32,000 bases of DNA from Geotalea daltonii FRC-32 (GTDB lineage Bacteria; Desulfobacterota; Desulfuromonadia; Geobacterales; Geobacteraceae): assembly GCF_000022265.1 (NCBI RefSeq), contig NC_011979.1, positions 2,490,001 to 2,522,000 of the forward strand. The letters are read 5' to 3'. Under the pieces are notes generated by a model. That model saw nothing but the letters and a program-made list of their open reading frames with translations, was not told the DNA's origin and ran no database searches. Positions 1,264 through 28,704 of this stretch are shown here, piece after piece. Numbering within the stretch: the stretch's first letter is position 1; every line of letters begins with the position of its first letter. A program made the position numbers and the translations under genes.

Positions 1264-3255
1264 ATGGATGTATTCAAGAAAAAGGCTTCATGTCATTCCA
1301 ATGCCAGTGCATCAACCGGTGCGGCCAAGAAGGTCGCACTGGTGGGAAACCCTAATGTGGGGAAAAGTGTCCTTTTCAATGCCTTGACCGGTGCTTATGT
1401 CACGGTTTCCAATTACCCCGGCACTTCGGTAGAGGTGGCTCGCGGTTCCGCCTCGATCAACGGCGAAGTATGTGAGATCATAGACACGCCGGGCATGTAT
1501 TCTCTCCTGCCGATTACCGAGGAGGAGCGGGTAGCCCGCGAGATTCTACTCAAGGAATCTCCCGATGTGGTTCTGCACGTGCTGGATGCAAGGAACCTGG
1601 AGCGGATGCTGGTCATGACCCTGCAGCTTATCGATGCCCAGTTGCCGGTGGTGCTGGTGGTGAATATCATGGACGAGGCGGAGCGGATGGGACTTGTAAT
1701 CGACATCCCACTCCTGCAGGAAAAACTCGGCATTCCGGTCATAGGTGCTGCCACCGCCAAAAAACGTGGCCTGGAAGAGATCAGGAAGGCCATTACCGGC
1801 TACAGCAGGAAGACTCGTGCGGTATTCGGCTACAGCAAACGGCTGGAGGCGGATATCGAAAGTGTCGCTCAGCTGATCAAGTGCGACTATCCGTTAGCGA
1901 AAAAATCGCTGGCGCTGCTGCTCTTGCAGAGGGACGAAGAGGTAACCGCCCTCATTGCCGAACGTGAAGGTGAAGGTTTTGCAGCCGTTTCCGACAAAGT
2001 GCGCGAGAAAACCTTCGAGCGGCGGGAATCCTTTAACCTGGACCTGTCCATGGAGCGAAAAGGTATAGTCAAAGGACTCCTTGCCGGGGTTTTCAATCTG
2101 CCGGACAAGAGGGTCGTTACATTTAATGAGCGCCTTTCCAGTTGGGCGGTCAGACCCTTAACAGGGATACCTTTGTTGCTGATAGTTCTTTATTATGGCC
2201 TTTACCAGTTCGTCGGTGTCTTTGGTGCCGGTACGCTCGTTGATTTTCTCGAAGGGACTCTCTTTGAAGGATATTTCAACCCCTGGATCACAGAATTCAT
2301 CAAAGGGGTGGTTCCCTGGGAAGTCATTCAGGAACTTTTTGTCGGAGAATACGGTGTGCTGACCCTTGGTCTGCGTTATGCAGTGGGAATCATTCTTCCC
2401 ATTGTTGCGACCTTTTTCCTCTTCTTTTCCATTCTTGAGGACAGCGGCTATTTTCCGCGGCTGGCGTTGCTGGTAGACAGGGTCTTCAAGAAAATCGGCC
2501 TCACCGGCCGTGCCGTCATTCCCATCGTTCTCGGTTTCGGTTGCGATACCATGGCTACCATGGTTACCCGTACGCTGGAAACGGTGCGTGAGCGAATTCT
2601 CGCCACCCTGCTGCTGGCTCTGGCCATTCCCTGTTCCGCACAGCTCGGCGTTATTCTGGCGCTTTTATCCAAGGCGCCCGGGGCTCTTCTGGTCTGGAGC
2701 ATCAGCCTTTTGCTCATATTCCTTTTAATTGGATTTCTTGCGGCCCGCCTTGTGCCCGGCGAGACCCCGATGTTCTATATGGAGCTGCCACCCATGCGGC
2801 TTCCCCAGCTGTCCAACGTTCTAACCAAGACCTATACCAGGATGCAATGGTACTTTCTGGAAATCCTGCCGCTCTTCATACTGGCATCGGTGCTGCTGTG
2901 GATCGGCAAACTCACTCATTTTTTCGAGAAGTCAGTGGAAGTCATGAGCCCGGTAATGTCCATGATGGGACTGCCCAAGGATGTAGCTGTCGCCTTCATC
3001 TTCGGCTTCTTCCGTCGGGATTATGGGGCTGCCGGACTGTATGATCTGCAGACCAAGGGTATACTGGATGGACGGCAATTGACGGTTGCAGCGGTGACGC
3101 TGACCCTCTTCATTCCCTGTGTGGCCCAGTTCCTGGTCATGAAAAGAGAGCGAGGTTTAAAGGTCGCCTTGGCCATCGGTGTCTTTGTCAGCGCTCTTGC
3201 CTTTGGCAGCGGTTATCTGCTCAACCAGTTCCTGCTCGTCACCAAGCTGGTGTAA
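1264..3255 (+). CDS. feoB: Ferrous iron transporter FeoB (N-terminal G domain plus polytopic membrane domain)
   Basis: G1 motif GNPNVGKS, G3 motif DTPG, and NIMD for G4. A long hydrophobic C-terminal domain is typical of FeoB. The protein is 663 aa, and an AAGGAAG RBS precedes the ATG. Confidence 0.95.
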   Translation: MDVFKKKASCHSNASASTGAAKKVALVGNPNVGKSVLFNALTGAYVTVSNYPGTSVEVARGSASINGEVCEIIDTPGMYSLLPITEEERVAREILLKESPDVVLHVLDARNLERMLVMTLQLIDAQLPVVLVVNIMDEAERMGLVIDIPLLQEKLGIPVIGAATAKKRGLEEIRKAITGYSRKTRAVFGYSKRLEADIESVAQLIKCDYPLAKKSLALLLLQRDEEVTALIAEREGEGFAAVSDKVREKTFERRESFNLDLSMERKGIVKGLLAGVFNLPDKRVVTFNERLSSWAVRPLTGIPLLLIVLYYGLYQFVGVFGAGTLVDFLEGTLFEGYFNPWITEFIKGVVPWEVIQELFVGEYGVLTLGLRYAVGIILPIVATFFLFFSILEDSGYFPRLALLVDRVFKKIGLTGRAVIPIVLGFGCDTMATMVTRTLETVRERILATLLLALAIPCSAQLGVILALLSKAPGALLVWSISLLLIFLLIGFLAARLVPGETPMFYMELPPMRLPQLSNVLTKTYTRMQWYFLEILPLFILASVLLWIGKLTHFFEKSVEVMSPVMSMMGLPKDVAVAFIFGFFRRDYGAAGLYDLQTKGILDGRQLTVAAVTLTLFIPCVAQFLVMKRERGLKVALAIGVFVSALAFGSGYLLNQFLLVTKLV

Positions 3256-3270
3256 CAAGAGGTTATCTCA

Positions 3271-3453
3271 ATGAAGTGCGGCTATTGCGGACACGAATTC
3301 AGCCAGGAAGAAGGCATCACCGGTTGCGGGAAATGCGGCAAACCGGGGAAATGTAGCATGGTACGCTGTCCACGCTGCTACTATGAGAATCCACCTGAAA
3401 TGAAGGTGTTGAAGAAACTAAAGGGATTGTTGGTGAAAAACGATAAAGAATAG
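3271..3453 (+). CDS. Small Cys-rich zinc-ribbon-like protein coupled to feoB
   Basis: The 60-aa product has three CxxC knuckles (CGYC, CGKC, CPRC) plus one extra Cys, and a basic C-terminal tail. It starts 15 nt after the feoB stop and has an AGAGG RBS. It has no TM segment, so it differs from winged-helix FeoC and from the TM-anchored FeoB-associated Cys-rich family. Confidence 0.6.
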   Translation: MKCGYCGHEFSQEEGITGCGKCGKPGKCSMVRCPRCYYENPPEMKVLKKLKGLLVKNDKE

Positions 3454-3480
3454 CAGGTTAAAACAATACAAGGAGCATGT

Positions 3481-4125
3481 ATGAAGTTATCGGATAAAGC
3501 GGAAGAAATTTTGGAAGCGCTATGGATTGCCGTTGAGGAGGAAGGAAAAGGCTTTGCCGAGATCGATAATATCGGCATTCCGGCCGGTGATCCAGCCTAC
3601 CAGGAGTTGACCTCCCAGACCCTGGTCGAGGTAAAGGAGGGGCGGGTCTACTTTCGTCCGGAGGGCAAGGTAGAAGGCAGGCGTACGATCCGCCGCCACC
3701 GGCTGGCAGAACGGCTGCTCATGGATGTGCTGAATGTACGTGGGGAGGCCGGAGACGACAAGGCTTGCCAGTTCGAGCATCTGCTCAACGAAGGGGTCGA
3801 TGCCAAGGTCTGCACCATGCTCAACCATCCCACCACCTGTCCCCACGGCAAACACATTCCGCCCGGGGAGTGCTGCGAGGAAGCGAAAAAAAGCGGTGAT
3901 CTGGGTGTTGTCCCCCTCACGGAGCTGAAATCGGGCGAAGAAGGGGAAATAGCCTATATCCAGACAGAAGACAGTAAAAAGATGCAGAAACTCATGGCCA
4001 TGGGGGTGCTTCCCGGCAACCGCATCATCCTCTCCCAGACCTTCCCCACCTACATTTTCAGGGTAGGTTTTTCCGAATTTGCCATCGATTCGGCCATGGC
4101 CCGTGAAATTTTTGTCCGAAAGTAG
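3481..4125 (+). CDS. ideR: DtxR/IdeR-family metal-dependent transcriptional regulator with a C-terminal FeoA/SH3-like domain
   Basis: It has RRHRLAERLL dimerisation and metal-site helices, and CQFEH, which is the DtxR-type C-x-x-E-H metal site. The C-terminal LTELKSGEEGEIAYI...GVLPGNRI is an SH3/FeoA-like fold. An AAGGAG RBS is present. Confidence 0.85.
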   Translation: MKLSDKAEEILEALWIAVEEEGKGFAEIDNIGIPAGDPAYQELTSQTLVEVKEGRVYFRPEGKVEGRRTIRRHRLAERLLMDVLNVRGEAGDDKACQFEHLLNEGVDAKVCTMLNHPTTCPHGKHIPPGECCEEAKKSGDLGVVPLTELKSGEEGEIAYIQTEDSKKMQKLMAMGVLPGNRIILSQTFPTYIFRVGFSEFAIDSAMAREIFVRK

Positions 4126-4301
4126 GCGGCGTTAAAAGTCTATAAATAGCTGCCGATTTCCTGTAACTTAGTATACTTATAGATGTGTACCTGCTGAAGA
4201 GGCATGTTTTTCTTGAATAAAGGACGCAAATTTATTACCCTTCACCGGCGTTTGGACTACGGACCGGTCCACATACAAATCACGCTTTGGAGGACACATC
4301 A

Positions 4302-4772
4302 ATGAAAAAAAATTCTGTCATGCTGACGGCTGTTTCCCTGCTCTTCGCCGCCACCTCAGCATTTGCTGCCACCGGCACGCTACCCAAGGGGTACGAAAAG
4401 TGGGAGAAAAGCAAGGAAAAGGTAGTCAGTGACAAGAGTTCGCTTTTCTATGGGGTTCACAACATCTATGTGGACAAGAAAGCCATGCCCGCCTACAAAG
4501 CCGGAGGAAAATATCCCGAAGGCAGCCGCTTTGTGGTCGATTACTACAAGTTAAAGGAAGAAAACGGCAAGCCGGTAAAAGGTAAAAAGAACATGATTGT
4601 CCTGATGAAAAAGGACAAGAAATTCAAAGAAACCGGCGGCTGGCAATTCGTCGGTTTCACCGGCGAGGGGAAGGCTTCCAAGCTTGACCCGGTGAAAAAC
4701 TGCTATGAATGCCATCTGAAAGAAGCAAAAGATAGAGATTACGTCATTTCGAAGTATACCGATTTCAAATAA
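4302..4772 (+). CDS. Periplasmic monohaem c-type cytochrome, cytochrome P460 / c'-beta family-like
   Basis: It has a signal peptide (MKKNSVMLTAVSLLFAATSAFA) and a single C-terminal CYECH haem c motif, followed by DYVI. The upstream GGWQFVGF fits the pattern I associate with the P460 family. The GGAGGA RBS favours ATG 4302 over TTG 4287. Confidence 0.6.
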   Translation: MKKNSVMLTAVSLLFAATSAFAATGTLPKGYEKWEKSKEKVVSDKSSLFYGVHNIYVDKKAMPAYKAGGKYPEGSRFVVDYYKLKEENGKPVKGKKNMIVLMKKDKKFKETGGWQFVGFTGEGKASKLDPVKNCYECHLKEAKDRDYVISKYTDFK

Positions 4773-4938: not shown

Positions 4939-6765
4939 ATGTTTATGGATAACAACGTGCCGGCCTTCAATGTCAAATCCTTGCCATCCTCCTGGCCTGC
5001 ACGCCTCGCCTCGGCAAGCCGGCTATTGATGGAGATATCAGGCACCACAGAGGAAGAATTCCTGGCAACCGGGGCTAGGCTCCACGATTTTTACGACCGG
5101 GCCGGACAAATCTCACAAATGTCTTCGGAGATGGCCGGCCAGGTTTCCGGCGAAGAAATTTCCCATACCATTGGCCGCCTTCGGGAGATACTTGTCCAGA
5201 TGGACGAGTACCTGGTCCATGGGGAGAAGGAGACGGAACAGAGTTCCCAAACCTTGCGCTCAATTCTTCTTTTATTGGACAGGACTGCTGCTCCCCTTTC
5301 AGGTTTCAGGAAAATAAACAAGTCGCTGCGCATGCTCGGTATTTCAACCAAGATAGAAAGTGCACGTCTTGGGCAGAGCGCTGCAGGATTCGATACGCTG
5401 GCAAACGATGTCGCTCAGCTTTCCATTCAGGTTCTTGAAAAGGCGGGGACAATACTTGAACAAAAGGAACTGCTGACCTCTGTGATCCGCCAGACCCTGA
5501 ACCAGGTTCTTGATCTGGGCATAGAACAAAAGGGTCAGGTAAAGGGAATACTGGAAAGAACCCAGGCAAGTCTTGCTGCCCTGACTGAAGTCAATTCCCG
5601 TTGTTCCACGGCTGCATCTGCCATAGCCGAAGCTTCGGGAGTCGTGTCCCGAAACATTGGCGAAGTTGTCATGTCCATGCAGTTCCACGATATAGTCCGT
5701 CAACAGATCGAGCATGTGGCCGAGGCTCTGGATGATCTGCAGAACAGCCTGGAAAGCGAGGGAGAAGACCGGGATGGGATGGCGCCCGCTCTGGCGCAGA
5801 CTGCTGTCGGTATTTGCCAACTGCAGGCGGCACAGCTATCCCATGCCAGCGATGAACTCAATGGCGCTGTGGGGCGTATTGTCGACAACTTGCACGGCAT
5901 AGCGGCAAAGGAAGCACGCCTTTCCGAAGATACCAGTGCCATGGCAGGTGTGGCAGATCAGACGGGAAGCTCTTTCCTGACGGGACTGGAAGCCGATCTC
6001 ACCGTGGTTGGCGCCGTTCTGGACCAGAGTTCCCAGCTCAATCGTGCCCTGACCAAGGCCATGAACACCGTTGCCGAAACGGTAACGGAGATTACGGCGT
6101 TTGTCAGCGATATTGAGTTCATCGGTGAGGAAATCGAACTCATCGCCCTCAATGCACAGGTGAAAGCTGCCCTGACCGGTGACGATGGTGCCGCGCTTGG
6201 AGTCCTTGCAGAGGCTATTCAACGGCTGTCGGTGGATGCCATTGCCCAGACCTCTGCCGTTTCCAATATGTTGACCGAAGTTACCAATGCCACCGAAGGA
6301 CTCTGCAACAGCGCCAGGGCAGATGCGACCGAGCTTGACCAGGAAGTGGAAGAAATGGTCAGTTCACTGCCGGGGCTGCTTCAATCCCTGCAGAGAGTGA
6401 ATGATTCACTTAGCGAATGTCTGAAGAACATGCAAGGGGCTGTTGAAACGCTTTGTACAGATATTGACGCAGCAACCAACGGCATTACGGCCCATTTTCA
6501 GGTGACCCAGGTGATCGACCAGGTAAGGAGCGAACTGTGCACCATTATCGATGAAGCCCGTCTCATCGCTCCGTCATCTGATGCTGAAAACGGCAATCTG
6601 ATGCAGCTTGCCGACCGCTACACCATGGACAGCGAACGCAAGATCCATCATTCCATGATCAAAAAAGAAGAGGGAGCAAGTACTCAACCTGTACCTGCCG
6701 ATCCTGTCAGCGAAGTTTCTTCGCCGGCATCCGATGGGCTGGGAGATAACGTGGAGCTGTTTTAA
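4939..6765 (+). CDS. Soluble MCP-like coiled-coil protein with two degenerate MCP signalling-tip motifs
   Basis: No hydrophobic TM segment is visible. Residues 123-165 (LRMLGISTKIESARLGQSAAGFDTLANDVAQLS) and 392-434 (IELIALNAQVKAALTGDDGAALGVLAEAIQRLS) both align with the MCP hairpin tip [31 protein letters not shown] seen in the five MCPs of this window. The protein is rich in Ala, Glu, Gln and Leu in a heptad-like pattern. The start could alternatively be ATG 4945. Confidence 0.6.
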   Translation: MFMDNNVPAFNVKSLPSSWPARLASASRLLMEISGTTEEEFLATGARLHDFYDRAGQISQMSSEMAGQVSGEEISHTIGRLREILVQMDEYLVHGEKETEQSSQTLRSILLLLDRTAAPLSGFRKINKSLRMLGISTKIESARLGQSAAGFDTLANDVAQLSIQVLEKAGTILEQKELLTSVIRQTLNQVLDLGIEQKGQVKGILERTQASLAALTEVNSRCSTAASAIAEASGVVSRNIGEVVMSMQFHDIVRQQIEHVAEALDDLQNSLESEGEDRDGMAPALAQTAVGICQLQAAQLSHASDELNGAVGRIVDNLHGIAAKEARLSEDTSAMAGVADQTGSSFLTGLEADLTVVGAVLDQSSQLNRALTKAMNTVAETVTEITAFVSDIEFIGEEIELIALNAQVKAALTGDDGAALGVLAEAIQRLSVDAIAQTSAVSNMLTEVTNATEGLCNSARADATELDQEVEEMVSSLPGLLQSLQRVNDSLSECLKNMQGAVETLCTDIDAATNGITAHFQVTQVIDQVRSELCTIIDEARLIAPSSDAENGNLMQLADRYTMDSERKIHHSMIKKEEGASTQPVPADPVSEVSSPASDGLGDNVELF

Positions 6766-6798: not shown

Positions 6799-7161
6799 AT
6801 GGGTGAACTGAAGGTGACCATGGCCAAAGCGGAAGGGAACCCTGCTGCCTTGGTTGTAAAAGTCAGCGGACCGCTTACCGTCCAGAACGTTGGAGAATTG
6901 AAAACTTCTCTTTTGCAGGCATTGGAGGGAGGGGAACAGCTTTGCCTCGACCTGGCCGGGGTGACGGAGGTCGACCTGGCAGGCCTGCAACTCCTATGCT
7001 CGGCTCACCGCAGTTCCCTGCACCTTAACAAGCATCTCTGCATTACTACCGGTGATAGTGATATTATTGATACGGCGAGCATGGAAGCAGGTTTTCAGCG
7101 CCATGTGGGATGTGCCCAGGACAAGGAAAAAAGCTGCTTTTGGGTGGGAGGGAATGATTGA
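6799..7161 (+). CDS. STAS-domain protein (anti-sigma-factor-antagonist fold) lacking the phosphorylatable Ser
   Basis: LVVKVSGPLTVQNVGELKTSL...LCLDLAGVTEVDLAGLQLL has the SpoIIAA/RsbV-like topology. The DSSG position reads DLAG. An AGGAGGA RBS is present, and the stop overlaps the cheY start (TGATG). Confidence 0.75.
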   Translation: MGELKVTMAKAEGNPAALVVKVSGPLTVQNVGELKTSLLQALEGGEQLCLDLAGVTEVDLAGLQLLCSAHRSSLHLNKHLCITTGDSDIIDTASMEAGFQRHVGCAQDKEKSCFWVGGND

Positions 7162-7526
7162 TGGGAAAGATAATCATGACGGCGGATGATTCTGCCAGTG
7201 TCCGACAGATGGTCAGTTTTACCCTGAAACAGAACGGGTACGAGGTGGTGGAAGCGGTGGACGGAAAAGATGCGCTGCAGAAGCTTGGCGGACAAAAGGT
7301 CGATATGCTCATCACCGACCTGAACATGCCGAACCTGGACGGCATCGGCCTGATCAAGGGGGCGCGGGCTCTGCCTGCCTGTAAATTCATTCCTATCGTT
7401 ATGCTTACCACGGAATCCCAGGACAGCAAAAAACAGGAAGGAAAGGCCGCCGGGGCAACCGGCTGGATAGTAAAGCCTTTCAAGCCTGAACAGCTGATGG
7501 CGGTGGTGAAGAAGGTGCTCGGATGA
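7161..7526 (+). CDS. cheY: CheY-type single-domain response regulator
   Basis: Receiver signature is complete: DD (ADDSAS), phospho-acceptor D in MLITDLNMP, T in LTTES, and K in VKPF. The product is about 121 aa. Its stop overlaps the cheA start (ATGA). Confidence 0.9.
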   Translation: MGKIIMTADDSASVRQMVSFTLKQNGYEVVEAVDGKDALQKLGGQKVDMLITDLNMPNLDGIGLIKGARALPACKFIPIVMLTTESQDSKKQEGKAAGATGWIVKPFKPEQLMAVVKKVLG

Positions 7527-9628
7527 TGGACCAACATCAAGAGGCATTCAAGGAAGAGGCTTACGAGCTTCTGGCAGAGTTGGAAACGTCCCTCCTGGAG
7601 CTTGAAGAAAGGCCTGATGATGAGGAAGTGATCGGCCGGGTCTTCCGGGCCATGCATACCATCAAGGGATCGGGGGCAATGTTCGGTTTTGAAGACATTG
7701 CCGCTTTTACCCACGAAGTGGAAACGGTTTTCGATCTGGTGCGCAACGGTCTGATTCCGGTAACCAAAACACTGGTCAACGTTACCCTGGCCGCTCGCGA
7801 TCAGATCAAGGCCATGCTTGATGCTTCAACCGGGGGCGCTGTGGTTGACGTAGCCTGCACCGCAGAGATCATTGCCACCCTGAAGAGCATGCTTCCCGAA
7901 ACGGAGTCTGAAAAATCATCGGCGAACCTTCAACCGGCCGAAGAGGCAAAAGGGGGGCAGCAGGAATCGGCTGAAGTTACCTACCGGATCCGTTTCGAAC
8001 CAGACCAGGGTATTTTCATGCGAGGAACTAATCCCCTGAGCCTGGTCAAGGAATTGAGGGAACTTGGTCAGAGCCGGGTAATTGCCCAGGTGACCAACCT
8101 GCTTCCCCTGGAGGAGATGGATGCGGAGAGCTGCTATGTTTACTGGGATGTGATTTTGACCACCAACAGGGGAATTGACGCCATCAAGGATGTATTCATA
8201 TTTGTAGAGGACGATTGCGAGCTGAAGATCGAGGCCATTGACAGTGGGGCACCTTTCGCCGGCGAAGATGGCTACAAGAAACTTGGCGAAATACTGGTGG
8301 AACGGGGTGATCTGAGCTTCGAGGAGATGAAGAATATCCTGTCCCAGCAGAAACGATTTGGGGAAATTGCCATCGAGAGCGGGTTTGTGGAACCGGAAAA
8401 AATCATCTCTGCCCTTGTGGAGCAGCAGCATGTGAAGGAGGTCCGGCAGGAAAGGCAATCCCAGGAGAACGCTTCCAGCATCCGTGTTCCTGCAGAAAAA
8501 CTGGACGTTTTGGTAAACCTGGTGGGAGAACTGGTCACGGTCCAGGCTCGTCTTAGTCAGACCTCCGCCGGGCGCAGGGATGCGGAACTGATGTCCATCG
8601 CCGAAGAGGTGGAGCGTCTGACCGCAGAATTGCGGGATAACGCTCTCAACATCAGGATGCTGCCCATCGGCACCACCTTCAGTAAGTTCAAACGCCTGGT
8701 TCGCGATCTTTCCAACGAACTGGGCAAAAAGATTGAAATGGAGACTTCCGGCGCTGAGACGGAGCTGGATAAGACCGTCATAGAAAAGCTCAACGATCCC
8801 TTGGTGCACCTGATCCGCAACAGCATCGACCACGGCATAGAAATGCCCGAAGAGCGAGCGGCAGCCGGCAAGCCGGCACAGGGGACGGTGCATCTCTCCG
8901 CCGTTCATTCCGGCGACAGTGTCTTCATTACCATCAAAGACGACGGTGCAGGACTGGATAAGGAGGCCATTCGGGCCAAGGCCATAGAAAAGGGGCTTAT
9001 TCCGCCCACCACAGAACTGTCCGAAAAAGAGATTTTTGCCCAGATATTTGCTCCCGGCTTTTCCACTGCTAAAAAGATCTCCAGTGTCTCCGGGCGCGGT
9101 GTCGGAATGGATGTGGTCAAGAGGGCCATCGAAGCGTTGCGCGGCACCATCGAAATAACCAGCAAACGGGGAGAAGGCACCACCATTACCGTAAAGATAC
9201 CCCTGACCCTGGCCATCATCGAAAGCCTGCTGGTTCAGATCGGCGGCGACCGTTTCCTGCTTCCACTTTCACTGGTGGATGAATGTGTGGAATTGACCGG
9301 CAGCGACATCGAAAAGTCCCATGGAAGAAATCTGGCCACCGTTCGTGACCACATGGTGCCATACATCCCACTCCGGGAGAAGTTCCGGATCATCGGCAAT
9401 GCGCCGGAAATCCAGCAGATCGTCATCACCCAGGTCAACGGCATGCGTGTCGGCTTTGTGGTCGACCACGTCATAGGCGAGCACCAGACGGTTATCAAAT
9501 CACTGGGACGGGCTTATAAAAATGTCGAGGGCATATCGGGAGCGACGATTCTGGGTGACGGGGCGGTTGCACTGATCGTGGATATCCCGCAACTGATAAA
9601 GGAAGTGGAGGCGCAGAGCCTGCAATAG
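7523..9628 (+). CDS. cheA: Chemotaxis histidine kinase CheA with an unusual insert
   Basis: Hpt domain with HTIKGSGAMFG; P3 domain SIRVPAEKLDVLVNLVGELV; N box HLIRNSIDHGIE; G1 DDGAGLD; G2 GRGVGMDVV; and a C-terminal CheW-like P5 domain. A tandem T2SSE_N/MshEN-like motif lies at 8279-8425. Confidence 0.95.
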   Translation: MMDQHQEAFKEEAYELLAELETSLLELEERPDDEEVIGRVFRAMHTIKGSGAMFGFEDIAAFTHEVETVFDLVRNGLIPVTKTLVNVTLAARDQIKAMLDASTGGAVVDVACTAEIIATLKSMLPETESEKSSANLQPAEEAKGGQQESAEVTYRIRFEPDQGIFMRGTNPLSLVKELRELGQSRVIAQVTNLLPLEEMDAESCYVYWDVILTTNRGIDAIKDVFIFVEDDCELKIEAIDSGAPFAGEDGYKKLGEILVERGDLSFEEMKNILSQQKRFGEIAIESGFVEPEKIISALVEQQHVKEVRQERQSQENASSIRVPAEKLDVLVNLVGELVTVQARLSQTSAGRRDAELMSIAEEVERLTAELRDNALNIRMLPIGTTFSKFKRLVRDLSNELGKKIEMETSGAETELDKTVIEKLNDPLVHLIRNSIDHGIEMPEERAAAGKPAQGTVHLSAVHSGDSVFITIKDDGAGLDKEAIRAKAIEKGLIPPTTELSEKEIFAQIFAPGFSTAKKISSVSGRGVGMDVVKRAIEALRGTIEITSKRGEGTTITVKIPLTLAIIESLLVQIGGDRFLLPLSLVDECVELTGSDIEKSHGRNLATVRDHMVPYIPLREKFRIIGNAPEIQQIVITQVNGMRVGFVVDHVIGEHQTVIKSLGRAYKNVEGISGATILGDGAVALIVDIPQLIKEVEAQSLQ

Positions 9629-9680: not shown

Positions 9681-11756
9681 ATGGACATCAGCAATATGAA
9701 ACTTGCTACAAAATTGTACGGTGGTATTGGTCTGATCGTCGCAGCTCTTGTGTGTGTTGTCCTGTTCCAGGTGATAAAGATGCGGGAGCTGGGCAATGTC
9801 CAGGATCACGGAGCCGACCTGAGTGGCAACGCAGTCGCCATTCAGGAAGTGCAGGTGCGGCTTGAGGCTCTGTACGGCATAATGGCCGACGCTGTTATCA
9901 ATCGCAATCTTGCCGAATCACGCAAGGAATTCAAGGACGCTAAAGACAACCTTCTGAAAGATGTGGATAATGTGCGTAAACTGGCCGATACGGCGGAGGA
10001 AAAGCAGTTGGCTGAAGCCTTTGCCGTCAATCTCGCCAAATATCAGGACCTGTTTGAAAACAGGCAGCTGCCCGAGTTGCAGAAAGGCGCCGGCTCCAGC
10101 ACGGAAGAGCTCCGCAGGATAGACGCTCTGCTCGATGCAGCACGGGATGCCGCAATCGAGCCGTTGCATAAGATTGTCGTCTCCATCAAGAAGGAAAGCA
10201 CCAATGGTGATGAAATGTTCGATGCCTTGAGGCAGCGAACCTCCACCATATCCATTGTTTGCAGCGTAGCGGCACTGATCTTCTCGGTCATTTTCGGCTG
10301 GCTGCTGGTCAGGAACGTGCAGCGGCAGTTGGGGGGAGATCCTCTCTACGTGGTCGAGATAACACGCAAGGTCGCAGCAGGTGACCTGTCAATGTCCATA
10401 GACACCACAGGCAAGGATGAACGAAGTTTGATCTTTGCCATGGCGCAGATGATGTGTACCATAAAGGCACTGGTCGACGATACCGGCGTGCTGGTAAAGG
10501 CGGCCATCGACGGCAAGCTCGATGTAAGGGCTGACGCCGACAAGCACCATGGGGAATTCCAGAAAATAGTTCATGGAGTCAACGCGACCCTTGATGCCGT
10601 AGTAACCCCTCTGAACGTGACGGCCGATTATGTTGCCCGCATCTCAAAGGGTGACATGCCTCCTCAGATAACGGAGGAGTATAAGGGGCAGTACAATCTG
10701 ATCAAACAGAACCTTAACCTGCTGATCGATTCCACTAACCGTATAGCAGCAGCAGCCAGGGAAGTGGCAGACGGCAACCTGCAAGTTGAGCTGAAGGTTC
10801 GTTCGGAGAATGATGAGCTGATGAAAGCATTGTCAGCCATGGTGGCCAATCTTGTGGAAATCATCGGCAATGTGAAATCTGCCGCAGACAACGTTGCAGC
10901 CGGCAGCCAGCAGCTTTCCGCAGGTTCCGAGGAAATGTCCCAGGGAGCAAGCGAGCAGGCTGCCGCTGCCGAAGAAGCATCCTCTTCCATGGAAGAAATG
11001 ACCGCAAGTATCAGACAGAATGCTGACAATGCCATGCAGACCGAAAAAATCGCCCTGAAATCAACCGCTGACGCCCAGGAAGGGGGAAGGGCCGTTGATG
11101 AAACAGTCCTGGCCATGAAGGAAATAGCAAGCCGGATCACCATCATAGAAGAGATAGCCCGGCAAACGAACCTGCTTGCGTTGAACGCAGCCATTGAGGC
11201 GGCCCGTGCCGGTGAGCATGGCAAGGGATTTGCCGTTGTTGCTTCCGAAGTACGCAAGTTGGCCGAGCGTAGTCAGAAGGCAGCGGGTGAAATAAGCGAA
11301 CTTTCGGCTTCCAGTGTCGACATTGCCGAAAAAGCAGGTCAAATGCTCAGTTCCATACTTCCCGATATTCAGAAGACGGCGGAACTGGTGCAGGAGATAA
11401 ATGCATCCAGTAAAGAGCAGGATACGGGGGCAGAGCAGATAAACAAAGCAATACAGCAGCTTGATCAGGTTATACAAACCAATGCAGGTGCTTCGGAAGA
11501 GATGGCCTCCACTGCCGAAGAGCTGGCGTCCCAGGCCGAACAGCTGCAACAGGCAATCGCCTACTTTAAAATCGACAGTTCGGCAGTGGACAAACGACCG
11601 ATAACCGAAAAAAAGCCGGTGCAAAAGCAACAGGCTAAAGCTGACAAATCTCTGAAAAATGCCAAAGCCAACTGTTATTCAAAAAAGGCCGTGGGCCATG
11701 ATCTTGATATGCAGGAACCACACAATGAATTGGATTCTGATTTCGAGAAATTCTGA
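9681..11756 (+). CDS. mcp: Methyl-accepting chemotaxis protein (2 TM, periplasmic helical sensor, HAMP array, signalling domain)
   Basis: TM1 is [21 protein letters not shown] and TM2 is [25 protein letters not shown]-type AAGDLSMSI and ADGNLQVEL motifs are present. The canonical tip is [52 protein letters not shown] and [12 protein letters not shown] look like methylation-site regions. An AGGGAGG RBS is present. Confidence 0.95.
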
Positions 11757-22298: not shown

Positions 22299-22325
22299 TA
22301 AAGAAAAATATGCGTCAGACGATAA
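22299..22325 (+). promoter_or_regulatory. Sigma28 (FliA)-type promoter upstream of cheW-2
   Basis: TAAA (22299-22302), an exact 15-nt spacer, then GACGATAA (22318-22325, 7 of 8 matches to GCCGATAA). It lies inside the over-long track ORF that starts at 22310. Confidence 0.55.
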
Positions 22326-22369
22326 GTAATCATGCTGCTTTGAACAGATTTGTCGAAAAGGGGGAGTCT

Positions 22370-22879
22370 ATGGAAGGATCTCAGATTGAAGGTGCAACAC
22401 AATACCTTACTTTTACCCTGGATGAAGAAGTCTTCGCCCTGGATATCGGCAAGGTGCGGGAGGTGCTGGATTACACGACGGTGACCAAGGTGCCCCAGAC
22501 CCCCGATTTCATGCGAGGTGTCATCAACCTGCGCGGCAATGTGGTGCCGGTGGTGGACATGCGGCTGAAATTCGCCATCGATGCCACGGAGAATACCGTC
22601 AATACCTGTATCATCATCGTCGAGGTGGATGTGGACGGTGAGATCACGATCCTCGGTGCCATGGCCGATTCGGTGCAGGAGGTGCTGGATCTGGAGCCTG
22701 ATCAGATCGAGCCGCCACCGCGAATCGGCGCCAGGATGAGGACCGATTTCATCCGCGGCATGGGCAAAAGGGATGAGCAATTCATCATGATCCTGGATAT
22801 CGACAGGATCTTTTCCGGTGAAGAACTGGCTGCGGTGCAGGCCATTGATGACGATATCTCACAGGTTTCCAACGGCTGA
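22370..22879 (+). CDS. cheW: CheW adaptor protein, copy 2
   Basis: It is about 90 percent identical by eye at nucleotide level to copy 1 across the core, including a 51-nt perfect tract (20164-20214 = 22529-22579). GGGGAG RBS precedes ATG 22370, which lies downstream of the predicted promoter. Confidence 0.9.
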
Positions 22880-22913
22880 CTTTTACCAGTTGATAGTCAA
22901 AAGGAGGATAGCA

Positions 22914-25124
22914 ATGAAGGTTTGGGACTTGAAGATTGGAATGAGGCTAGGCCTTGGCTTTGGACTGGTGCTGGTCATGTTGCTGCTGGTAGGGTTGGTT
23001 GGCTATTGGGGGGTAAACGCCGTATCGGGTACTACAGTGGCTATGCTGGACGGCGATGCGGTAATAGCCCAGCATTCTGCCCGTGCCCGGGCCAACATCC
23101 TCGGATTGCGGCGTTATGAAAAGGACACGTTCATCAACATCGCTTCCATGGATAAGGTGGATGAGTACTTCAAGAAGTGGAACGGGGAGCGGGAAAAGGT
23201 CGAGGAGCGGATTGCCTCCCTTGAAAAGGTAGCCGTGACTACGCAGGACAAGGAGCAGGTAAAGATCATCAAGGATAAGCTGGCTGGATACGCTGCCGGT
23301 TACAACAAAGTCTATTCCCTTATAAAAGAGGGGAAAATCTTGACTACTGCCGATGCCAACAAGGCCATTGGCGATGTGAAGGATGAAAGTCATAAAATGG
23401 AGGCGACGGCCGTTGAATTTGCCCAAGAGGCCAATAAACGCATGGAAGGGGCGAAGAAACTGGTAACGGCGAAACAGGACAAGACGGTGGTGATGATGCT
23501 TATCGTCAGCCTGATCGCCATAGCTGTTGGATTCCTGATCAGCATCCTCATCACCCGCAGCATCAAGAAACCGATTTCGGAAGCGGTTGATGTCGCCAAT
23601 AAGCTGGCGGATGGAGACCTGTCGGTGGATATCGTGGTTATGTCCGGCGATGAGACCGGTCAGCTGTTGAGTGCCATGAAGAACATGATCGACAGTCTGC
23701 GTGAATCGGCGCTGGCTGCGGAAAGGGTGGCAGCAGGGGATATGTCCGTCGAGATAAAAATCCGTTCGGACAAGGACCTCCTGGGTCAGAACCTGACGGC
23801 AATGGTTGCTGCCATCAAGGGCATACTCAAGGAAACGGTCACCCTCATTACAGCCATTCAGGAAGGAAAGCTGGATCGGCGCGGCGACACCTCCGGTTAC
23901 CAGGGGGGATGGGCCGATCTGTTGACCGGAATCAACAGGCTGGTGGATGCCTTTGTAACGCCATTCAAAATGACCGCCGATTGTGTCAATCGCATCAGCA
24001 AGGGTGACGTACCGCCGCAGATTACCGATGCCTATCAAGGGGATTTTAACGAGATCAAGAACAACATCAATCAGCTGATAGAGGCGATGAACAATGTTAC
24101 ACTGCTGGCCCAGGAGATTGCGGGGGGTAATCTCCTGGTCAAGGTGGAAGATCGCTCGGCAAACGACCGCCTGATGCAGGCCCTGGCCCTGATGGTGAAA
24201 AAGTTGACGGAGATTGTCACCGAGGTCAAAAACGCTGCCGATAACGTGGCCTCAGGGAGCCAGCAGATGTCGTCGGGCTCGGAAGAAATGTCCCAGGGGG
24301 CAAGCGAGCAGGCGGCAGCTGCCGAAGAGGCATCATCCAGCATGGAAGAGATGTCATCCAACATCAGGCAGAACGCCGACAACGCCCTGCAGACGGAAAA
24401 GATAGCGGTGAAATCTGCCGGCGACGCCCGTGAAGGGGGCAAGGCAGTGGAAGAAACGGTCCGTGCCATGAAGGACATCGCCGGGAAGATATCCATCATC
24501 GAAGAGATCGCCCGCCAGACAAACCTGCTGGCGCTGAATGCAGCCATAGAGGCCGCCCGTGCGGGAGAACACGGCAAGGGTTTTGCGGTGGTTGCCTCCG
24601 AGGTGCGCAAGCTGGCAGAGCGGAGCCAGAAGGCCGCAGCAGAGATCAGCGAACTGTCCGCCTCAAGCGTTGACGTGGCGGTAAGGGCTGGGGACCTGCT
24701 GACGAAGATGGTGCCGGATATCCAGCGAACCGCCGAACTGGTGCAGGAAATCAGCGCCGCCAGCAGAGAGCAGGATACCGGCGCCGAGCAGATCAACAAG
24801 GCGATCCAGCAGCTGGACCAGGTGATCCAGCAGAATGCGGGGGCGTCCGAAGAGATGGCTTCCACTGCCGAAGAGCTGGCTTCTCAAGCAGAGCAGCTCC
24901 AATGTTCAATCTCCTTTTTCCGAATTGAGAATGTCGAGCAGGGGAGAAAAGCCGCTGCCAGGGCACCTGCTTACCAGAAAGACAAGCAACCCCAAAGGAT
25001 CAGGATTCAGCACATGGGCAATGGGGAAAAGGCCAACAGCCATCCATCCAAGTCTGCCGTAGGCCATGATCTGGATATGGACAGCGGAGTCGACCACATG
25101 GACGTGGATTTCGAAAAATACTGA
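22914..25124 (+). CDS. mcp: Methyl-accepting chemotaxis protein (periplasmic helical sensor, multi-HAMP array, signalling domain)
   Basis: AAGGAGGA RBS (22901-22908) precedes ATG 22914 ([17 protein letters not shown]). The track start at 22818 overlaps cheW-2. It has two TM segments, HAMP motifs [18 protein letters not shown] and AGGNLLVKV, and one 91-aa-type module. The signalling domain is near-identical to that of the MCP at 20545-22233. Confidence 0.95.
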
Positions 25125-27465: not shown

Positions 27466-28704
27466 GTGGGGCAGGAAAAATTCTTTCTAGGACGTCAACC
27501 GATTCTGGACATAAACCAGAAGATAATCGGCTTCGAGCTTCTCTTCCGCTCGGCGGAAAGTCTCTGTTCTGCCAATATCACCGACAGCTTCCAGGCCAGT
27601 GCCAGTGTCATAATCAATGCCCTCACTGACTTCGGCACTAACGAGGTACTTGGTCGGCACAAGGGGTATTTCAACGTGGACCTGGAGATGCTCATGAGCG
27701 ACAGCCTGGAACTTTTGCCCCGGGAACAGGTGGTGGTTGAGCTCTTGGAGACCATCGAAATAAACAGTCAAGTGATCGAGCGCTGCAGGGAACTCAAAAA
27801 GCAGGGTTTTACCATAGCTCTTGATGATCATGAATACAACCCGGCCTTTGAAGAGCTTTACACGCTGACCGACATTATCAAAGTGGACATCCTCCAGACC
27901 TCACCTGAGAGAATTCCGGAAATGATGCAGCTGTTGAAGCGCTGGCCCCTCACCATGCTGGCGGAAAAGGTGGAGACAGCCGAACAATACGCTTTCTGCT
28001 CAGCCCAAGGTTTTCAGTTGTTTCAGGGCTATTTTTTTGCCCATCCGGTAGTCTTGAAACAGAAGCGGGTGGACATTGCCCAGCTGACACTGACAAAACT
28101 GCTGGAAAAGGTGATGAGAGAGGCGGAGTTGAGCGAGATCGAGGAAACCTTCAAGGAAAACCCGAACCTTACTTACAACCTGCTGCGGCTGGTGAATTCG
28201 GTGGCCATCGGCCTGAGAGAGAGAATCAAGACCCTGCGTCACGCTCTTATGGTTTTAGGGCTGCAGCAGTTGAAACGGTGGATCATGCTGGCCCTTTATG
28301 CCAGCAAAAGCGACCAGGGGGTATTCAGCCCTCTTCTGGAAATTGCGGCAAGCAGGGGCAAACTGATGGAACTTCTGGTCAAAAAACAGCAAGCCTTGCT
28401 CGTTAACACTGATTTTTCGGATCGTGCGTTCATGACCGGTGTTCTTTCTCTGGTTGATTCACTGTTTGAGGTTTCCATGGAAGAGATGGTGCAGCAGCTC
28501 AATCTGGATGATGATATCCGCCGGGCTTTACTGGCTCGGGAAGGGATTCTCGGCCATTTTCTGCAACTGACGGAGACGGTTGAACAGGCCGATTTCAAAA
28601 TGGCGAGCCAACTGATGAACCGGACGAAACTGACACCCGATCATCTTCTGGAAGCCCAACTGGAGACGATTAACTGGACCAATGGCTTGACAGGCATGGT
28701 CTAA
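27466..28704 (+). CDS. EAL-domain plus HDOD-domain signalling protein (putative c-di-GMP phosphodiesterase or sensor)
   Basis: The N-terminal FLGRQPILDINQKIIGFELLFR is typical of EAL+HDOD proteins. EAL catalytic positions look present: ELLFR (E and R), FNVD (N), ELLE (ExxE), ALDD (DD), KVD (K), EKVE (E) and QGYFF (Q). The C-terminal HDOD signature is NPNLTYNLLRLVNS...ALMVLGLQQLKRW. AGGGAG RBS precedes GTG 27466. Confidence 0.85.
   Translation: MGQEKFFLGRQPILDINQKIIGFELLFRSAESLCSANITDSFQASASVIINALTDFGTNEVLGRHKGYFNVDLEMLMSDSLELLPREQVVVELLETIEINSQVIERCRELKKQGFTIALDDHEYNPAFEELYTLTDIIKVDILQTSPERIPEMMQLLKRWPLTMLAEKVETAEQYAFCSAQGFQLFQGYFFAHPVVLKQKRVDIAQLTLTKLLEKVMREAELSEIEETFKENPNLTYNLLRLVNSVAIGLRERIKTLRHALMVLGLQQLKRWIMLALYASKSDQGVFSPLLEIAASRGKLMELLVKKQQALLVNTDFSDRAFMTGVLSLVDSLFEVSMEEMVQQLNLDDDIRRALLAREGILGHFLQLTETVEQADFKMASQLMNRTKLTPDHLLEAQLETINWTNGLTGMV

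What the first reader, a model, noticed from the sequence alone, without database searches (positions are those of the whole stretch)
8279..8425. CheA carries an internal tandem MshEN/T2SSE_N-like motif pair of the c-di-GMP receptor type
Between the Hpt domain (HTIKGS) and the P3 dimerisation helix (SIRVPAEKLDVLVNLVGELV), the cheA ORF encodes KLGEILVERGDLSFEEMKNILSQQ-K-RFGEIAIESGFVEPEKIISALVEQ. Each 24-residue half fits, position for position, the MshEN c-di-GMP-binding motif RLGxx(L/V/I)(L/V/I)xxG(L/V/I)(L/V/I)xxxxLxxxLxxQ, as I recall it from the Vibrio MshE work. Half 1 reads K-L-G, I-L-V, G-D-L, M, L, Q. Half 2 reads R-F-G, I-A-I, G-F-V, I, L, Q. Canonical MshEN joins the halves with a 5-residue spacer. 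Here the spacer is a single Lys, so the binding geometry may differ or binding may be lost. The same cluster ends with an EAL+HDOD gene. A chemotaxis kinase directly gated by c-di-GMP is something I do not know to have been characterised.
Basis: partly seen in the sequence, partly recalled or inferred. Interest (0 to 1): 0.75.

Follow-up and report, generated by a model that had tools for sequence, protein, structure and literature searches.

The report
CheA kinase with c-di-GMP-type insert
A Geobacter-family chemotaxis kinase (CheA) carries, just before its dimerisation domain, a compact 49-residue copy of the MshEN-type module that binds cyclic-di-GMP in other proteins, so the second messenger may act directly on the kinase; this domain combination was already listed in a 2016 survey, and I found no paper that tests it.

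Summary
The cheA ORF (7523-9628, +) encodes KLGEILVERGDLSFEEMKNILSQQ-K-RFGEIAIESGFVEPEKIISALVEQ at aa 253-301 (nt 8279-8425), between a P2-like domain and P3. It is not chance: the motif occurs nowhere else in the six-frame translation, and 0 of 200,000 CheA shuffles gave a pair.

It is homologous to the MshEN_N four-helix c-di-GMP-binding subdomain. hhalign gives 99.1% probability (E 6e-19), with a single 4-residue gap at the spacer. All 12 ligand-contact positions are identical or conservatively replaced.

The missing Pfam T2SSE_N hit means nothing. The crystallographic MshE module itself gives no PF05157 hit either.

The 1-residue spacer is the usual form in a large CheA family (Desulfuromonadota, other Thermodesulfobacteriota lineages, Nitrospirota, Spirochaetes). 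Gammaproteobacterial members have 9-12 residues.

Wang et al. [quoted passage not shown] I found no paper that tests it.

The EAL-HDOD gene is a lineage-specific neighbour (3/27 loci). A CheS-like STAS gene is the conserved partner (63/72).

c-di-GMP binding is likely but unproven. AF2 gives a confident four-helix insert, but Foldseek finds no significant match. Verdict: new member of a known, uncharacterised kind.

The parts
7523..9628 (+). cheA ORF, 701 aa: P1 - P2-like - MshEN_N-like insert - P3 - P4 - P5
   Evidence: ORF list. [quoted passage not shown] 98% identical to Geotalea toluenoxydans CheA.
7541..7825 (+). P1 (Hpt) domain, aa 7-101, phospho-accepting His in MHTIKGS
   Evidence: Pfam PF01627, E 1.2e-15.
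8000..8257 (+). P2-like domain, aa ~160-245 (YRIRFEP...GTNPL...ESCY...VFIFVEDDC). Called 'CheY-binding' in Wang 2016. No Pfam hit.
   Evidence: No Pfam hit. Conserved in Aeromonas and Pseudomonas CheA and in alphaproteobacterial STAS-linked CheAs that lack the insert.
8279..8350 (+). MshEN-type motif I, aa 253-276, KLGEILVERGDLSFEEMKNILSQQ (predicted helix 1 - turn - helix 2)
   Evidence: G255 is invariant and K/R253 is basic in 99 of 117 diverse family members. AF2 helices at aa 254-260 and 266-275.
8351..8353 (+). Spacer, the single residue K277 (canonical MshEN has 5 residues)
   Evidence: A one-residue spacer in 119 of 120 orthologues and in 47 of 51 motif pairs among diverse representatives. 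hhalign places one 4-residue gap here.
8354..8425 (+). MshEN-type motif II, aa 278-301, RFGEIAIESGFVEPEKIISALVEQ (predicted helix 3 - turn - helix 4)
   Evidence: G280 and Q301 are invariant in 117 of 117, A297 in 114 and L298 in 111.
8426..8473 (+). Conserved helical connector, aa 302-317 (QHVKEVRQERQSQENA). It continues helix 4 towards P3.
   Evidence: Conserved in orthologues. AF2 shows one helix from aa 291 to 317 in the insert+P3 model and from 291 to 311 in the insert model.
8474..8653 (+). P3 dimerisation domain, aa 318-377
   Evidence: Pfam PF02895, E 1.6e-13. Foldseek best matches were T. maritima CheA P3: TM 0.39-0.41 normalised to the 146-residue query, rmsd 1.2-2.5 A over 58-63 aligned columns, E 0.14-0.65, so not significant by E-value.
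8795..9607 (+). P4 kinase (aa 425-562) and P5 CheW-like (aa 568-695) domains
   Evidence: Pfam PF02518, E 4e-20, and PF01584, E 2e-27.
6799..7161 (+). STAS-domain protein (CheS-like), the conserved upstream partner gene
   Evidence: Pfam STAS_2 and STAS. Present within 1.6 kb upstream of cheA in 63 of 72 related loci. STAS genes are also annotated next to the Aeromonas and Pseudomonas CheAs.
7158..7526 (+). CheY response regulator, overlapping the cheA start
   Evidence: Pfam Response_reg, E 1e-25. Upstream of cheA in 58 of 72 loci.
4939..6765 (+). MCP with no Pfam sensor or HAMP hit (IcpA-like position; presumed soluble, topology not tested). First gene of the MCP-STAS-cheY-cheA block.
   Evidence: Pfam MCPsignal only. 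Syntenic in 36 of 80 loci.
27466..28704 (+). EAL-HDOD protein at the end of the che cluster. It keeps ELLFR, ELLE, DD, KVD, EKVE and QGYF.
   Evidence: Pfam. Translation. Follows cheB in only 3 of 27 informative loci.

Best explanation
The 49-residue insert (aa 253-301) is an MshEN_N-type module: two helix-turn-helix hairpins, each carrying the 24-residue RLG...L...L..Q motif. It has been inserted into the P2-P3 linker of a CheA from a STAS/CheS-associated chemosensory class.

Shown: it is homologous to the c-di-GMP-binding subdomain of MshE and PilF. It keeps the ligand-contact residues. It is under strong purifying selection across many phyla. It is predicted as a confident four-helix unit whose last helix runs on to within six residues of P3.

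Inferred: one c-di-GMP binds across the two hairpins. The backbone NH of G255 and G280 reads the guanine O6/N7. K253 and R278 stack on the bases. The L254/I294/L298 and F279/M269/L273 clusters sandwich the bases. Q276 and Q301 bind ribose and phosphate. Binding orders or re-orients the module that tethers P1 and P2 to the P3-P4 core. This would change autophosphorylation, or phosphotransfer to the co-encoded CheY (possibly together with the CheS-like STAS protein). Cellular c-di-GMP would then tune the kinase directly. The sign of the effect cannot be predicted.
For: Sequence homology:
- phmmer of aa 233-316 against PDB gives T. thermophilus PilF at 1.1e-8 and V. cholerae MshE-N (5HTL) at 0.0026.
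- A family profile gives PilF 2e-13, the c-di-GMP-binding GSPII-B domain 1.3e-4 and MshE 4.8e-4.
- hhalign of 90 diverse CheA inserts against 14 MshEN_N sequences gives 99.1%, E 5.8e-19, over 52 columns with one 4-residue gap.

Contact residues. Wang 2016 names R, L, G, L17, L21 and Q24 of each motif as the contacts. Here they are K, L, G, M, L, Q and R, F, G, I, L, Q. PilF GSPII-B, described as a high-affinity binder (title of PMC11731258), also has K-L-G in motif I and L-L-G in motif II. Of the eight changes blamed for loss of binding in XpsE, seven positions are intact here.

Conservation. G255, G280 and Q301 are invariant in 117 of 117 representatives clustered at 50% identity.

The N-subdomain alone can be enough. 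c-di-GMP binding was re-established in the isolated N-subdomain PilF1-65 (PMC12002112), and c-di-GMP lies mainly in MshEN_N.

Structure. AF2 of the insert alone gives pLDDT 91.8 and four helices.

Spacer length. It varies within the same CheA family (1, 2, 9-12 and >20 residues). One orthologue has exactly 5 through a small duplication. That is what a loop would show.

Literature. Wang 2016 already assign this architecture to MshEN_N.
Against: - No binding data exist for any CheA of this type in the literature I could search.
- The spacer is 1 residue. In Wang's alignment the spacers run from about 3 (Bd2402) to 9 (the Aeromonas CheA itself), and PilF GSPII-C has 7. A 4-residue deletion in the helix 2-helix 3 connection could change how the hairpins pack, and the site is formed across both hairpins.
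- Foldseek of the confident insert model found no significant PDB match. The best was PilF GSPII-A at E 5, TM 0.34, rmsd 10.8 A.
- D263 sits at a core position (I19 in MshE). I19R is among the XpsE changes listed.
- Across the family, position 1 of motif II varies (R46, P26, K19, L14) and Q276 is R or K in a third of members.
- Homologues such as XpsE have lost binding, so homology alone does not prove it.
Confidence: 0.55

Rival explanations
1. A degenerate MshEN_N relic. The module keeps the fold-determining residues but no longer binds nucleotide. It serves as a rigid spacer or as a docking surface for partner proteins (the CheS-like STAS protein, CheY, or P1) next to P3.
For: STAS and CheY genes are almost always directly upstream (63/72 and 58/72 loci; also in Aeromonas and Pseudomonas). 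The review PMC12654446 reports that S. meliloti CheS binds CheA and affects its binding to CheY. That the site lies between P1 and P3 (CheA163-256, Dogra et al. 2012) is my recollection and was not read here. The spacer is shorter than in any spacer I could read from the available alignments. Foldseek gives no MshEN match. There is an acidic residue at a core position.
Against: Alphaproteobacterial STAS-CheY-CheA clusters (Agrobacterium, Shinella) have the same P2-like domain but a Pro/Ala-rich linker in place of the insert. STAS partnership therefore does not need the insert. The invariant residues are the ligand-contact glycines and the terminal Gln, which is solvent-facing in MshE, not only core residues. 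The contact set is closer to consensus than that of PilF GSPII-B, described as a high-affinity binder.
Confidence: 0.3
2. The module binds a different ligand from c-di-GMP, for example 3'3'-cGAMP (used as a second messenger by Geobacter, from my own knowledge) or another dinucleotide. The shortened spacer would have re-shaped the site.
For: Only indirect: altered spacer geometry, and Geobacteraceae use cGAMP signalling (own knowledge, not tested here).
Against: The short-spacer form occurs in MAGs labelled Geobacteraceae, Nitrospirota, Spirochaetes, Brocadiaceae and Bacillota, which looks broader than the known users of cGAMP signalling (own knowledge). Both halves keep the same Gly-backbone reader.
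Confidence: 0.08
3. A chance resemblance in an unstructured, low-complexity P2-P3 linker.
For: Pfam reports no domain here. Linkers at this position are Pro/Ala-rich and unstructured in alphaproteobacterial relatives and, from my recollection of the sequence, in E. coli CheA.
Against: 0 of 200,000 shuffles give a motif pair. hhalign probability is 99.1%. Three columns are invariant across 117 diverse sequences. AF2 pLDDT is 91.8 with four helices.
Confidence: 0.01

Closest known systems
Vibrio cholerae MshE N-terminal domain, N-subdomain MshEN_N (PDB 5HTL; Wang et al. 2016, PMC5013675)
   Same: Two tandem 24-residue RLGxxhhxxGhhxxxxLxxxLxxQ motifs, each a helix-turn-helix. All six contact positions per motif are identical or conservatively replaced. 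Profile homology is 99.1%.
   Different: The spacer is 1 residue instead of 5 (a 49-residue module, not 53). There is no MshEN_C subdomain, so no Asp108-type extra contact and no PF05157 hit. The module is internal to a kinase rather than N-terminal to a secretion ATPase. D replaces the core Ile19.
Thermus thermophilus PilF GSPII-B and GSPII-C domains (PDB 8PDK, 6F8L; PMC11731258, PMC12002112)
   Same: Best sequence matches in PDB. K-L-G start of motif I as here. c-di-GMP binding was re-established in the isolated PilF1-65 N-subdomain of the related GSPII-A domain, showing that the N-subdomain alone can suffice.
   Different: Spacers of 5-7 residues. Part of a pilus ATPase. Binding is measured there and not here.
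Aeromonas CheA with MshEN_N: A. veronii EKB11881 in Wang 2016 Suppl. Table 4; Aeromonas sp. BC14 plasmid WP_168966300.1
   Same: Same architecture, P1 - P2-like - MshEN_N - P3 - P4 - P5. 41% identity end to end. Same neighbourhood of short MCP, CheY, STAS, CheA, MCP, CheW, CheR, CheB.
   Different: Spacer of 9 residues (12 in Pseudomonas sp. HR96) against 1. Motif I starts M-L-G in Aeromonas. Gene order is cheY-STAS, not STAS-cheY. A cheD gene is present. No EAL-HDOD gene.
Sinorhizobium meliloti CheS-CheA-CheY1 phosphate-sink system (Dogra et al. 2012, as summarised in PMC12654446)
   Same: Gene order MCP - STAS (CheS) - cheY - cheA matches icpA-cheS-cheY1-cheA (that order is from my own knowledge). 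The P2-like domain is shared with alphaproteobacterial CheAs of STAS-linked clusters.
   Different: The alphaproteobacterial CheAs examined have a Pro/Ala-rich linker where this CheA has the MshEN_N module.
Other routes by which c-di-GMP reaches chemotaxis or histidine kinases: MapZ-CheR1, YcgR, Cle CheY-like proteins, CckA, ShkA (own knowledge)
   Same: They couple c-di-GMP level to chemotactic output or to histidine-kinase activity.
   Different: Those use PilZ adaptors, an arginine-rich CheY tail, or sites in the catalytic or receiver domains. None is an MshEN module inside CheA itself.

Membership tests
MshEN_N c-di-GMP-binding subdomain (Wang et al. 2016) | Two tandem copies of the 24-residue motif RLGxx(L/V/I)(L/V/I)xxG(L/V/I)(L/V/I)xxxxLxxxLxxQ | tested here: met
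   Both copies are present. Deviations are K for R, D at position 11 and M at 17 in copy I, and F at 2, A at 6 and I at 17 in copy II. Copy II fits the authors' relaxed search motif. Copy I fits it except at position 11.
MshEN_N c-di-GMP-binding subdomain (Wang et al. 2016) | A five-residue spacer giving a 53-residue module | tested here: not met
   The spacer is the single K277, giving a 49-residue module. hhalign needs a 4-residue gap. Spacer length is variable in the published alignment, from about 3 (Bd2402) to 9 (CheA_Aerve), and PilF GSPII-C has 7. It is 1 to >20 in this CheA family. It therefore looks less like a defining feature than a typical value.
MshEN_N c-di-GMP-binding subdomain (Wang et al. 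2016) | Detectable sequence or profile homology to MshE and PilF N-subdomains | tested here: met
   phmmer against 5HTL E 0.0026, PilF 1e-8. Profile against PDB 2e-13 to 5e-4. hhalign 99.1%. The weak Pfam hits (DUF4388, FumaraseC_C) are the same ones that true MshEN_N fragments give.
MshEN_N c-di-GMP-binding subdomain (Wang et al. 2016) | Four-helix bundle fold formed by the two hairpins | tested here: inconclusive
   AF2 predicts four helices with pLDDT 91.8. Foldseek against PDB gives no significant hit; the best is PilF GSPII-A at E 5, TM 0.34.
MshEN_N c-di-GMP-binding subdomain (Wang et al. 2016) | Binds c-di-GMP with nM-uM affinity | not testable with these tools
   Needs ITC or DRaCALA. 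No published measurement for any CheA of this type was found.
Full MshEN / Pfam T2SSE_N (PF05157) | C-terminal alpha/beta subdomain (MshEN_C), which is what the Pfam model mostly covers | tested here: not met
   No PF05157 hit for CheA, the fragment, or 39 orthologues. Motif II is followed directly by the connector helix and P3. Control: the MshE, PilF and Moth_1554 N-subdomains alone give no PF05157 hit either.
CheA histidine kinase | Hpt (P1), dimerisation (P3), HATPase_c (P4) and CheW-like (P5) domains in order | tested here: met
   All four Pfam domains are above their gathering scores.
[quoted passage not shown] Table 4) | MshEN_N placed between the P2-like domain and P3 of CheA | tested here: met
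   Insert at aa 253-301, P2-like domain at ~160-245, P3 from 318. Collinear with an Aeromonas CheA of this type at 41% identity. The published row was read.
STAS(CheS)-associated chemosensory cluster | A single-domain STAS gene adjacent to cheY and cheA | tested here: met
   STAS at 6799-7161, cheY at 7158-7526. 63 of 72 related loci.

The most novel reading that the evidence does not exclude
A chemotaxis kinase is gated directly by c-di-GMP through a minimal 49-residue MshEN_N variant lying about 16 residues upstream of the dimerisation domain. Because the one-residue spacer may not allow the canonical intramolecular bundle, the two inserts of a CheA dimer could pair across the subunit interface next to P3. 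c-di-GMP would then act as an inter-subunit clamp controlling trans-autophosphorylation, in concert with the CheS-like STAS protein. The direct-gating part is the likelier half. The inter-subunit version is pure speculation that nothing here excludes.
Probability: 0.4. Interest if true: 0.7.

Novelty: new member of a known kind. Interest (0 to 1): 0.42.

Why it matters
c-di-GMP is known to reach chemotaxis through adaptors (PilZ proteins on the motor or on CheR, CheY-like Cle proteins). A direct second-messenger input into CheA itself has been predicted from domain architecture since 2016. As far as I could find, it has never been tested.

This family is large. 454 clusters at 50% identity scored E <= 1e-10, although some of these match P3 alone. 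At least 354 species-level genomes matched from one exact peptide pattern alone. The organisms include environmentally important anaerobes.

The family also offers a natural series of spacer lengths (1, 2, 5, 9, 12). That series would show how much linker the longest known nucleotide-binding motif needs. If binding is confirmed, it gives a simple, testable route by which the sessile/motile decision feeds into chemoreceptor-array output.

Tried and rejected
1. Pfam scans for T2SSE_N on CheA, the fragment and 39 orthologues found no hit. I rejected this as evidence after the positive control and the published alignment showed that PF05157 does not cover the N-subdomain.

2. Foldseek with the insert+P3 model returned only CheA P3 hairpins. 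With the insert-only model nothing was significant. The structural test stays inconclusive.

It was repeated with 17 sequences sharing LGEILVERG, so the taxonomic survey is biased towards that exact peptide.

4. The search for homologous proteins with the insert profile returned only short stand-alone repeat proteins and CheA fragments, not full CheAs.

5. The listing of cluster members gave no organism names.

6. EAL-HDOD as a general functional partner is rejected: 3 of 27 loci.

7. The insert as the docking site for the STAS protein is weakened. STAS-linked alphaproteobacterial CheAs lack the insert.

8. The apparent alignment of E. coli CheA to the insert region is low-identity (about 30%) and I did not inspect it. 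From my recollection of the E. coli sequence there is no motif pair there. I treat it as an alignment extension from P3.
Full report
OBSERVATION. The window encodes a 701-aa CheA at 7523..9628 on the + strand. Pfam finds Hpt (aa 7-101), H-kinase_dim (318-377), HATPase_c (425-562) and CheW (568-695). It consists of two 24-residue halves, K253-Q276 and R278-Q301, joined by the single K277.

A regex for the motif matches nowhere else in the 63,996 residues of the six-frame translation of the window. In 200,000 composition-preserving shuffles of CheA, four gave a single match and none gave a pair.

WHAT IT IS. A phmmer search of aa 233-316 against all PDB sequences returns T. thermophilus PilF (E 1.1e-8, several repeats) and the V. 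cholerae MshE N-terminal domain 5HTL (E 0.0026). The alignment needs a 4-residue gap at the spacer. A profile of 39 orthologous fragments strengthens this: PilF 2e-13, the c-di-GMP-binding PilF GSPII-B domain 1.3e-4, Geobacter PilB 2.3e-4, MshE 4.8e-4. A profile-profile comparison of 90 diverse CheA inserts with 14 MshEN_N sequences gives 99.1% probability, E 5.8e-19, over 52 columns with one 4-residue gap. Those 14 sequences came from the PDB alignments and from the supplement of Wang et al. 2016.

The Pfam T2SSE_N model (PF05157) does not hit CheA, the fragment, or any of 39 orthologues. In the published alignment the Pfam consensus starts only in the middle of motif II. In a positive control, the ligand-binding N-subdomains of MshE, PilF GSPII-B and Moth_1554 also give no PF05157 hit. 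They give the same weak DUF4388 and FumaraseC_C matches as the CheA insert.

LIGAND-CONTACT RESIDUES. Wang et al. describe six key residues per motif:
- Arg at position 1 stacks on guanine.
- Leu at position 2 forms a hydrophobic cluster with L17 and L21 of the other motif.
- The backbone of Gly at position 3 reads the guanine O6/N7.
- Gln at position 24 binds ribose and phosphate.

In this CheA they are K253, L254, G255, M269, L273, Q276 and R278, F279, G280, I294, L298, Q301. That is eight identical and four conservative. K-L-G is also the start of motif I in PilF GSPII-B, which the title of PMC11731258 describes as a high-affinity binder. Of the eight substitutions blamed for loss of binding in XpsE, only the I19 position is changed here (D263). 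That is a core position, not a contact. c-di-GMP lies mainly in the N-subdomain, and binding was re-established in the isolated N-subdomain PilF1-65. A module lacking MshEN_C is therefore not disqualified.

CONSERVATION AND DISTRIBUTION. All 120 closest CheA homologues (70-98% identity, Geobacteraceae) keep the insert, and 119 have the one-residue spacer. One (P0061) has a 4-residue duplication, QQKREQKRFG, that gives exactly five.

An exhaustive HMMER search of 1.84 billion representatives with aa 240-385 found 2,269 clusters at E <= 1e-3 and 454 at E <= 1e-10. The latter figure includes some P3-only matches. Of the best 150, 116 align across the insert. G255, G280 and Q301 are invariant (117/117). 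A297, L298, L258 and I257 are nearly so. Position 253 is R or K in 99 of 117. Position 278 varies (R/P/K/L). Q276 is Q/R/K. The spacer is one residue in 47 of 51 regex-detected pairs.

A scan of GTDB species genomes with the single peptide pattern [LI]GEILVERG gave at least 354 confirmed loci. They come from Geobacteraceae, Desulfuromonadales, Desulfobulbales, Desulfobacterales, Syntrophobacteraceae, Smithella, Syntrophorhabdus, Desulfovibrionales, Nitrospirota, Spirochaetes, Brocadiaceae and Bacillota MAGs.

Plasmid-borne CheAs of Aeromonas and Pseudomonas have the same architecture with spacers of 9 and 12 residues. The Aeromonas protein is 41% identical to the window's CheA from end to end. 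Spacer length therefore behaves like a loop. The one-residue form is the usual state in the non-gammaproteobacterial branch.

STRUCTURE PREDICTION. AF2 of aa 240-385 gives four short helices followed by the P3 hairpin. The insert has only moderate confidence there (pLDDT 61-75). AF2 of aa 248-312 alone gives pLDDT 91.8 with helices at 254-260, 266-275, 279-286 and 291-311. This is the helix-turn-helix x 2 pattern of MshEN_N, with a three-residue connection (Q276-K277-R278). The last helix continues through the conserved EQQHVKEVRQERQ segment to within six residues of P3.

Foldseek against PDB found nothing significant for the insert. The best match was PilF GSPII-A at E 5, TM 0.34, rmsd 10.8 A. 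Such short all-helical queries are hard for Foldseek, and I had no coordinates for a direct superposition. The fold test is therefore inconclusive. It neither confirms nor excludes a canonical bundle.

CONTEXT. The che cluster reads as follows:
- MCP with no recognised sensor domain (4939-6765)
- STAS (6799-7161)
- CheY (7158-7526)
- CheA
- three MCPs
- PAS histidine kinase
- CheW
- MCP
- CheW
- MCP
- CheR
- CheB
- EAL-HDOD (27466-28704)

One MCP ends in ...DFEKF. Together with the multiple MCP genes, this fits the 'type 2 E. coli-like' cluster with class 34H receptors of Tran et al. 2008 (PMC2577667). That assignment is my inference.

In 80 related loci, STAS lies within 1.6 kb upstream of cheA in 63 of 72 informative cases, and CheY in 58 of 72. 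EAL-HDOD follows cheB in only 3 of 27. The conserved partner is the STAS protein. This recalls CheS of S. meliloti, which binds CheA and affects its binding to CheY (PMC12654446). That the CheS site is CheA163-256 and that the operon order is icpA-cheS-cheY1-cheA are my recollection of Dogra et al. 2012.

I therefore asked whether the insert might be the CheS dock. Alphaproteobacterial plasmid clusters of the form STAS-CheY-CheA (Shinella) or small ORF-CheY-CheA (Agrobacterium) have the same P2-like domain. They have a Pro/Ala-rich linker where the window's CheA has the insert. The STAS partnership goes with the P2-like domain and does not need the insert.

MECHANISM. The steps shown are homology, retained contact residues, strong selection, a confident helical prediction, and the position next to P3. 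The steps inferred are as follows. One c-di-GMP binds across the two hairpins. Binding orders or re-orients the tether that delivers P1/P2 to the P3-P4 core. This alters autophosphorylation or phosphotransfer to CheY, possibly together with the STAS protein. The sign of the effect cannot be predicted.

I put about 0.55 on this and about 0.3 on a non-binding structural or docking relic. I put under 0.1 on a different ligand, and essentially nothing on chance.

WHAT IS KNOWN. Wang et al. [quoted passage not shown] Full-text searches for MshEN, GSPII, CheA, c-di-GMP and Geobacter found no paper that measures c-di-GMP binding or regulation for any such CheA.

The finding is thus a correct rediscovery of a catalogued but uncharacterised architecture. 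What this analysis adds is that the compact one-residue-spacer form is the usual one in a very large CheA family, that it is tied to a CheS-like STAS gene rather than to EAL-HDOD, and that the Pfam criterion is not a valid test.

VERDICT. This is a new member of a known kind, of moderate interest (0.42). The direct c-di-GMP-to-CheA link is still untested and is easy to test.

Noticed in passing
window 8000-8257 (CheA aa ~160-245): A conserved P2-like domain (YRIRFEP...GTNPL...ESCY...VFIFVEDDC) has no Pfam hit. It is shared by gamma-, delta- and alphaproteobacterial CheAs that sit next to a STAS gene. It is the more likely docking site for the CheS-like protein.
   Followed up: partly
window 6799-7161: A single-domain STAS gene lies directly upstream of cheY-cheA. 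It is conserved in 63 of 72 related loci and in Aeromonas and Pseudomonas plasmids (there in the order cheY-STAS). It resembles S. meliloti CheS. Its role in these non-alphaproteobacterial systems appears unstudied.
   Followed up: partly
protein P0061 (orthologue of window 8279-8425): One Geobacteraceae orthologue has a 4-residue tandem duplication (QQKREQKRFG). It turns the 1-residue spacer into exactly the canonical 5. This is either a natural spacer variant or an assembly artefact.
   Followed up: no
proteins P0271, P0272, P0274, P0276: Small stand-alone proteins of 65-129 aa consist only of 2-4 of these 24-residue hairpin units. In P0271 and P0272 spacers of 2 and 5 residues alternate. 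Short-spacer pairs therefore recur outside CheA.
   Followed up: no
window 27466-28704: The EAL-HDOD protein keeps ELLFR (the ExLxR motif), ELLE, DD, KVD, EKVE and QGYF. It may be an active phosphodiesterase or a c-di-GMP sensor. Pfam matches only the C-terminal two thirds of the EAL model.
   Followed up: partly
window 9681-11756: This MCP ends in ...DFEKF, a CheR-tethering-type pentapeptide typical of class 34H receptors. The cluster carries six MCP genes and two cheW genes.
   Followed up: no
window 22310-22879 and 22818-25124: The listed cheW ORF and the following MCP ORF (GTG start) overlap by 62 nt. The MCP start is probably further downstream than the mechanical ORF call.
   Followed up: no
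window 1264-4772: Upstream of the che cluster lie feoB, a DtxR-type repressor fused to FeoA, and a cytochrome P460 gene. They have no evident link to the finding.
   Followed up: no
locus L083 3423-4565 (Agrobacterium leguminum plasmid): In an alphaproteobacterial relative that lacks the insert, a gene annotated 'HD domain-containing phosphohydrolase', with a phosphorelay GO term, sits just upstream of the small ORF-cheY-cheA block. It could be an HD-GYP-type enzyme, another possible cyclic-dinucleotide link. Not examined.
   Followed up: no
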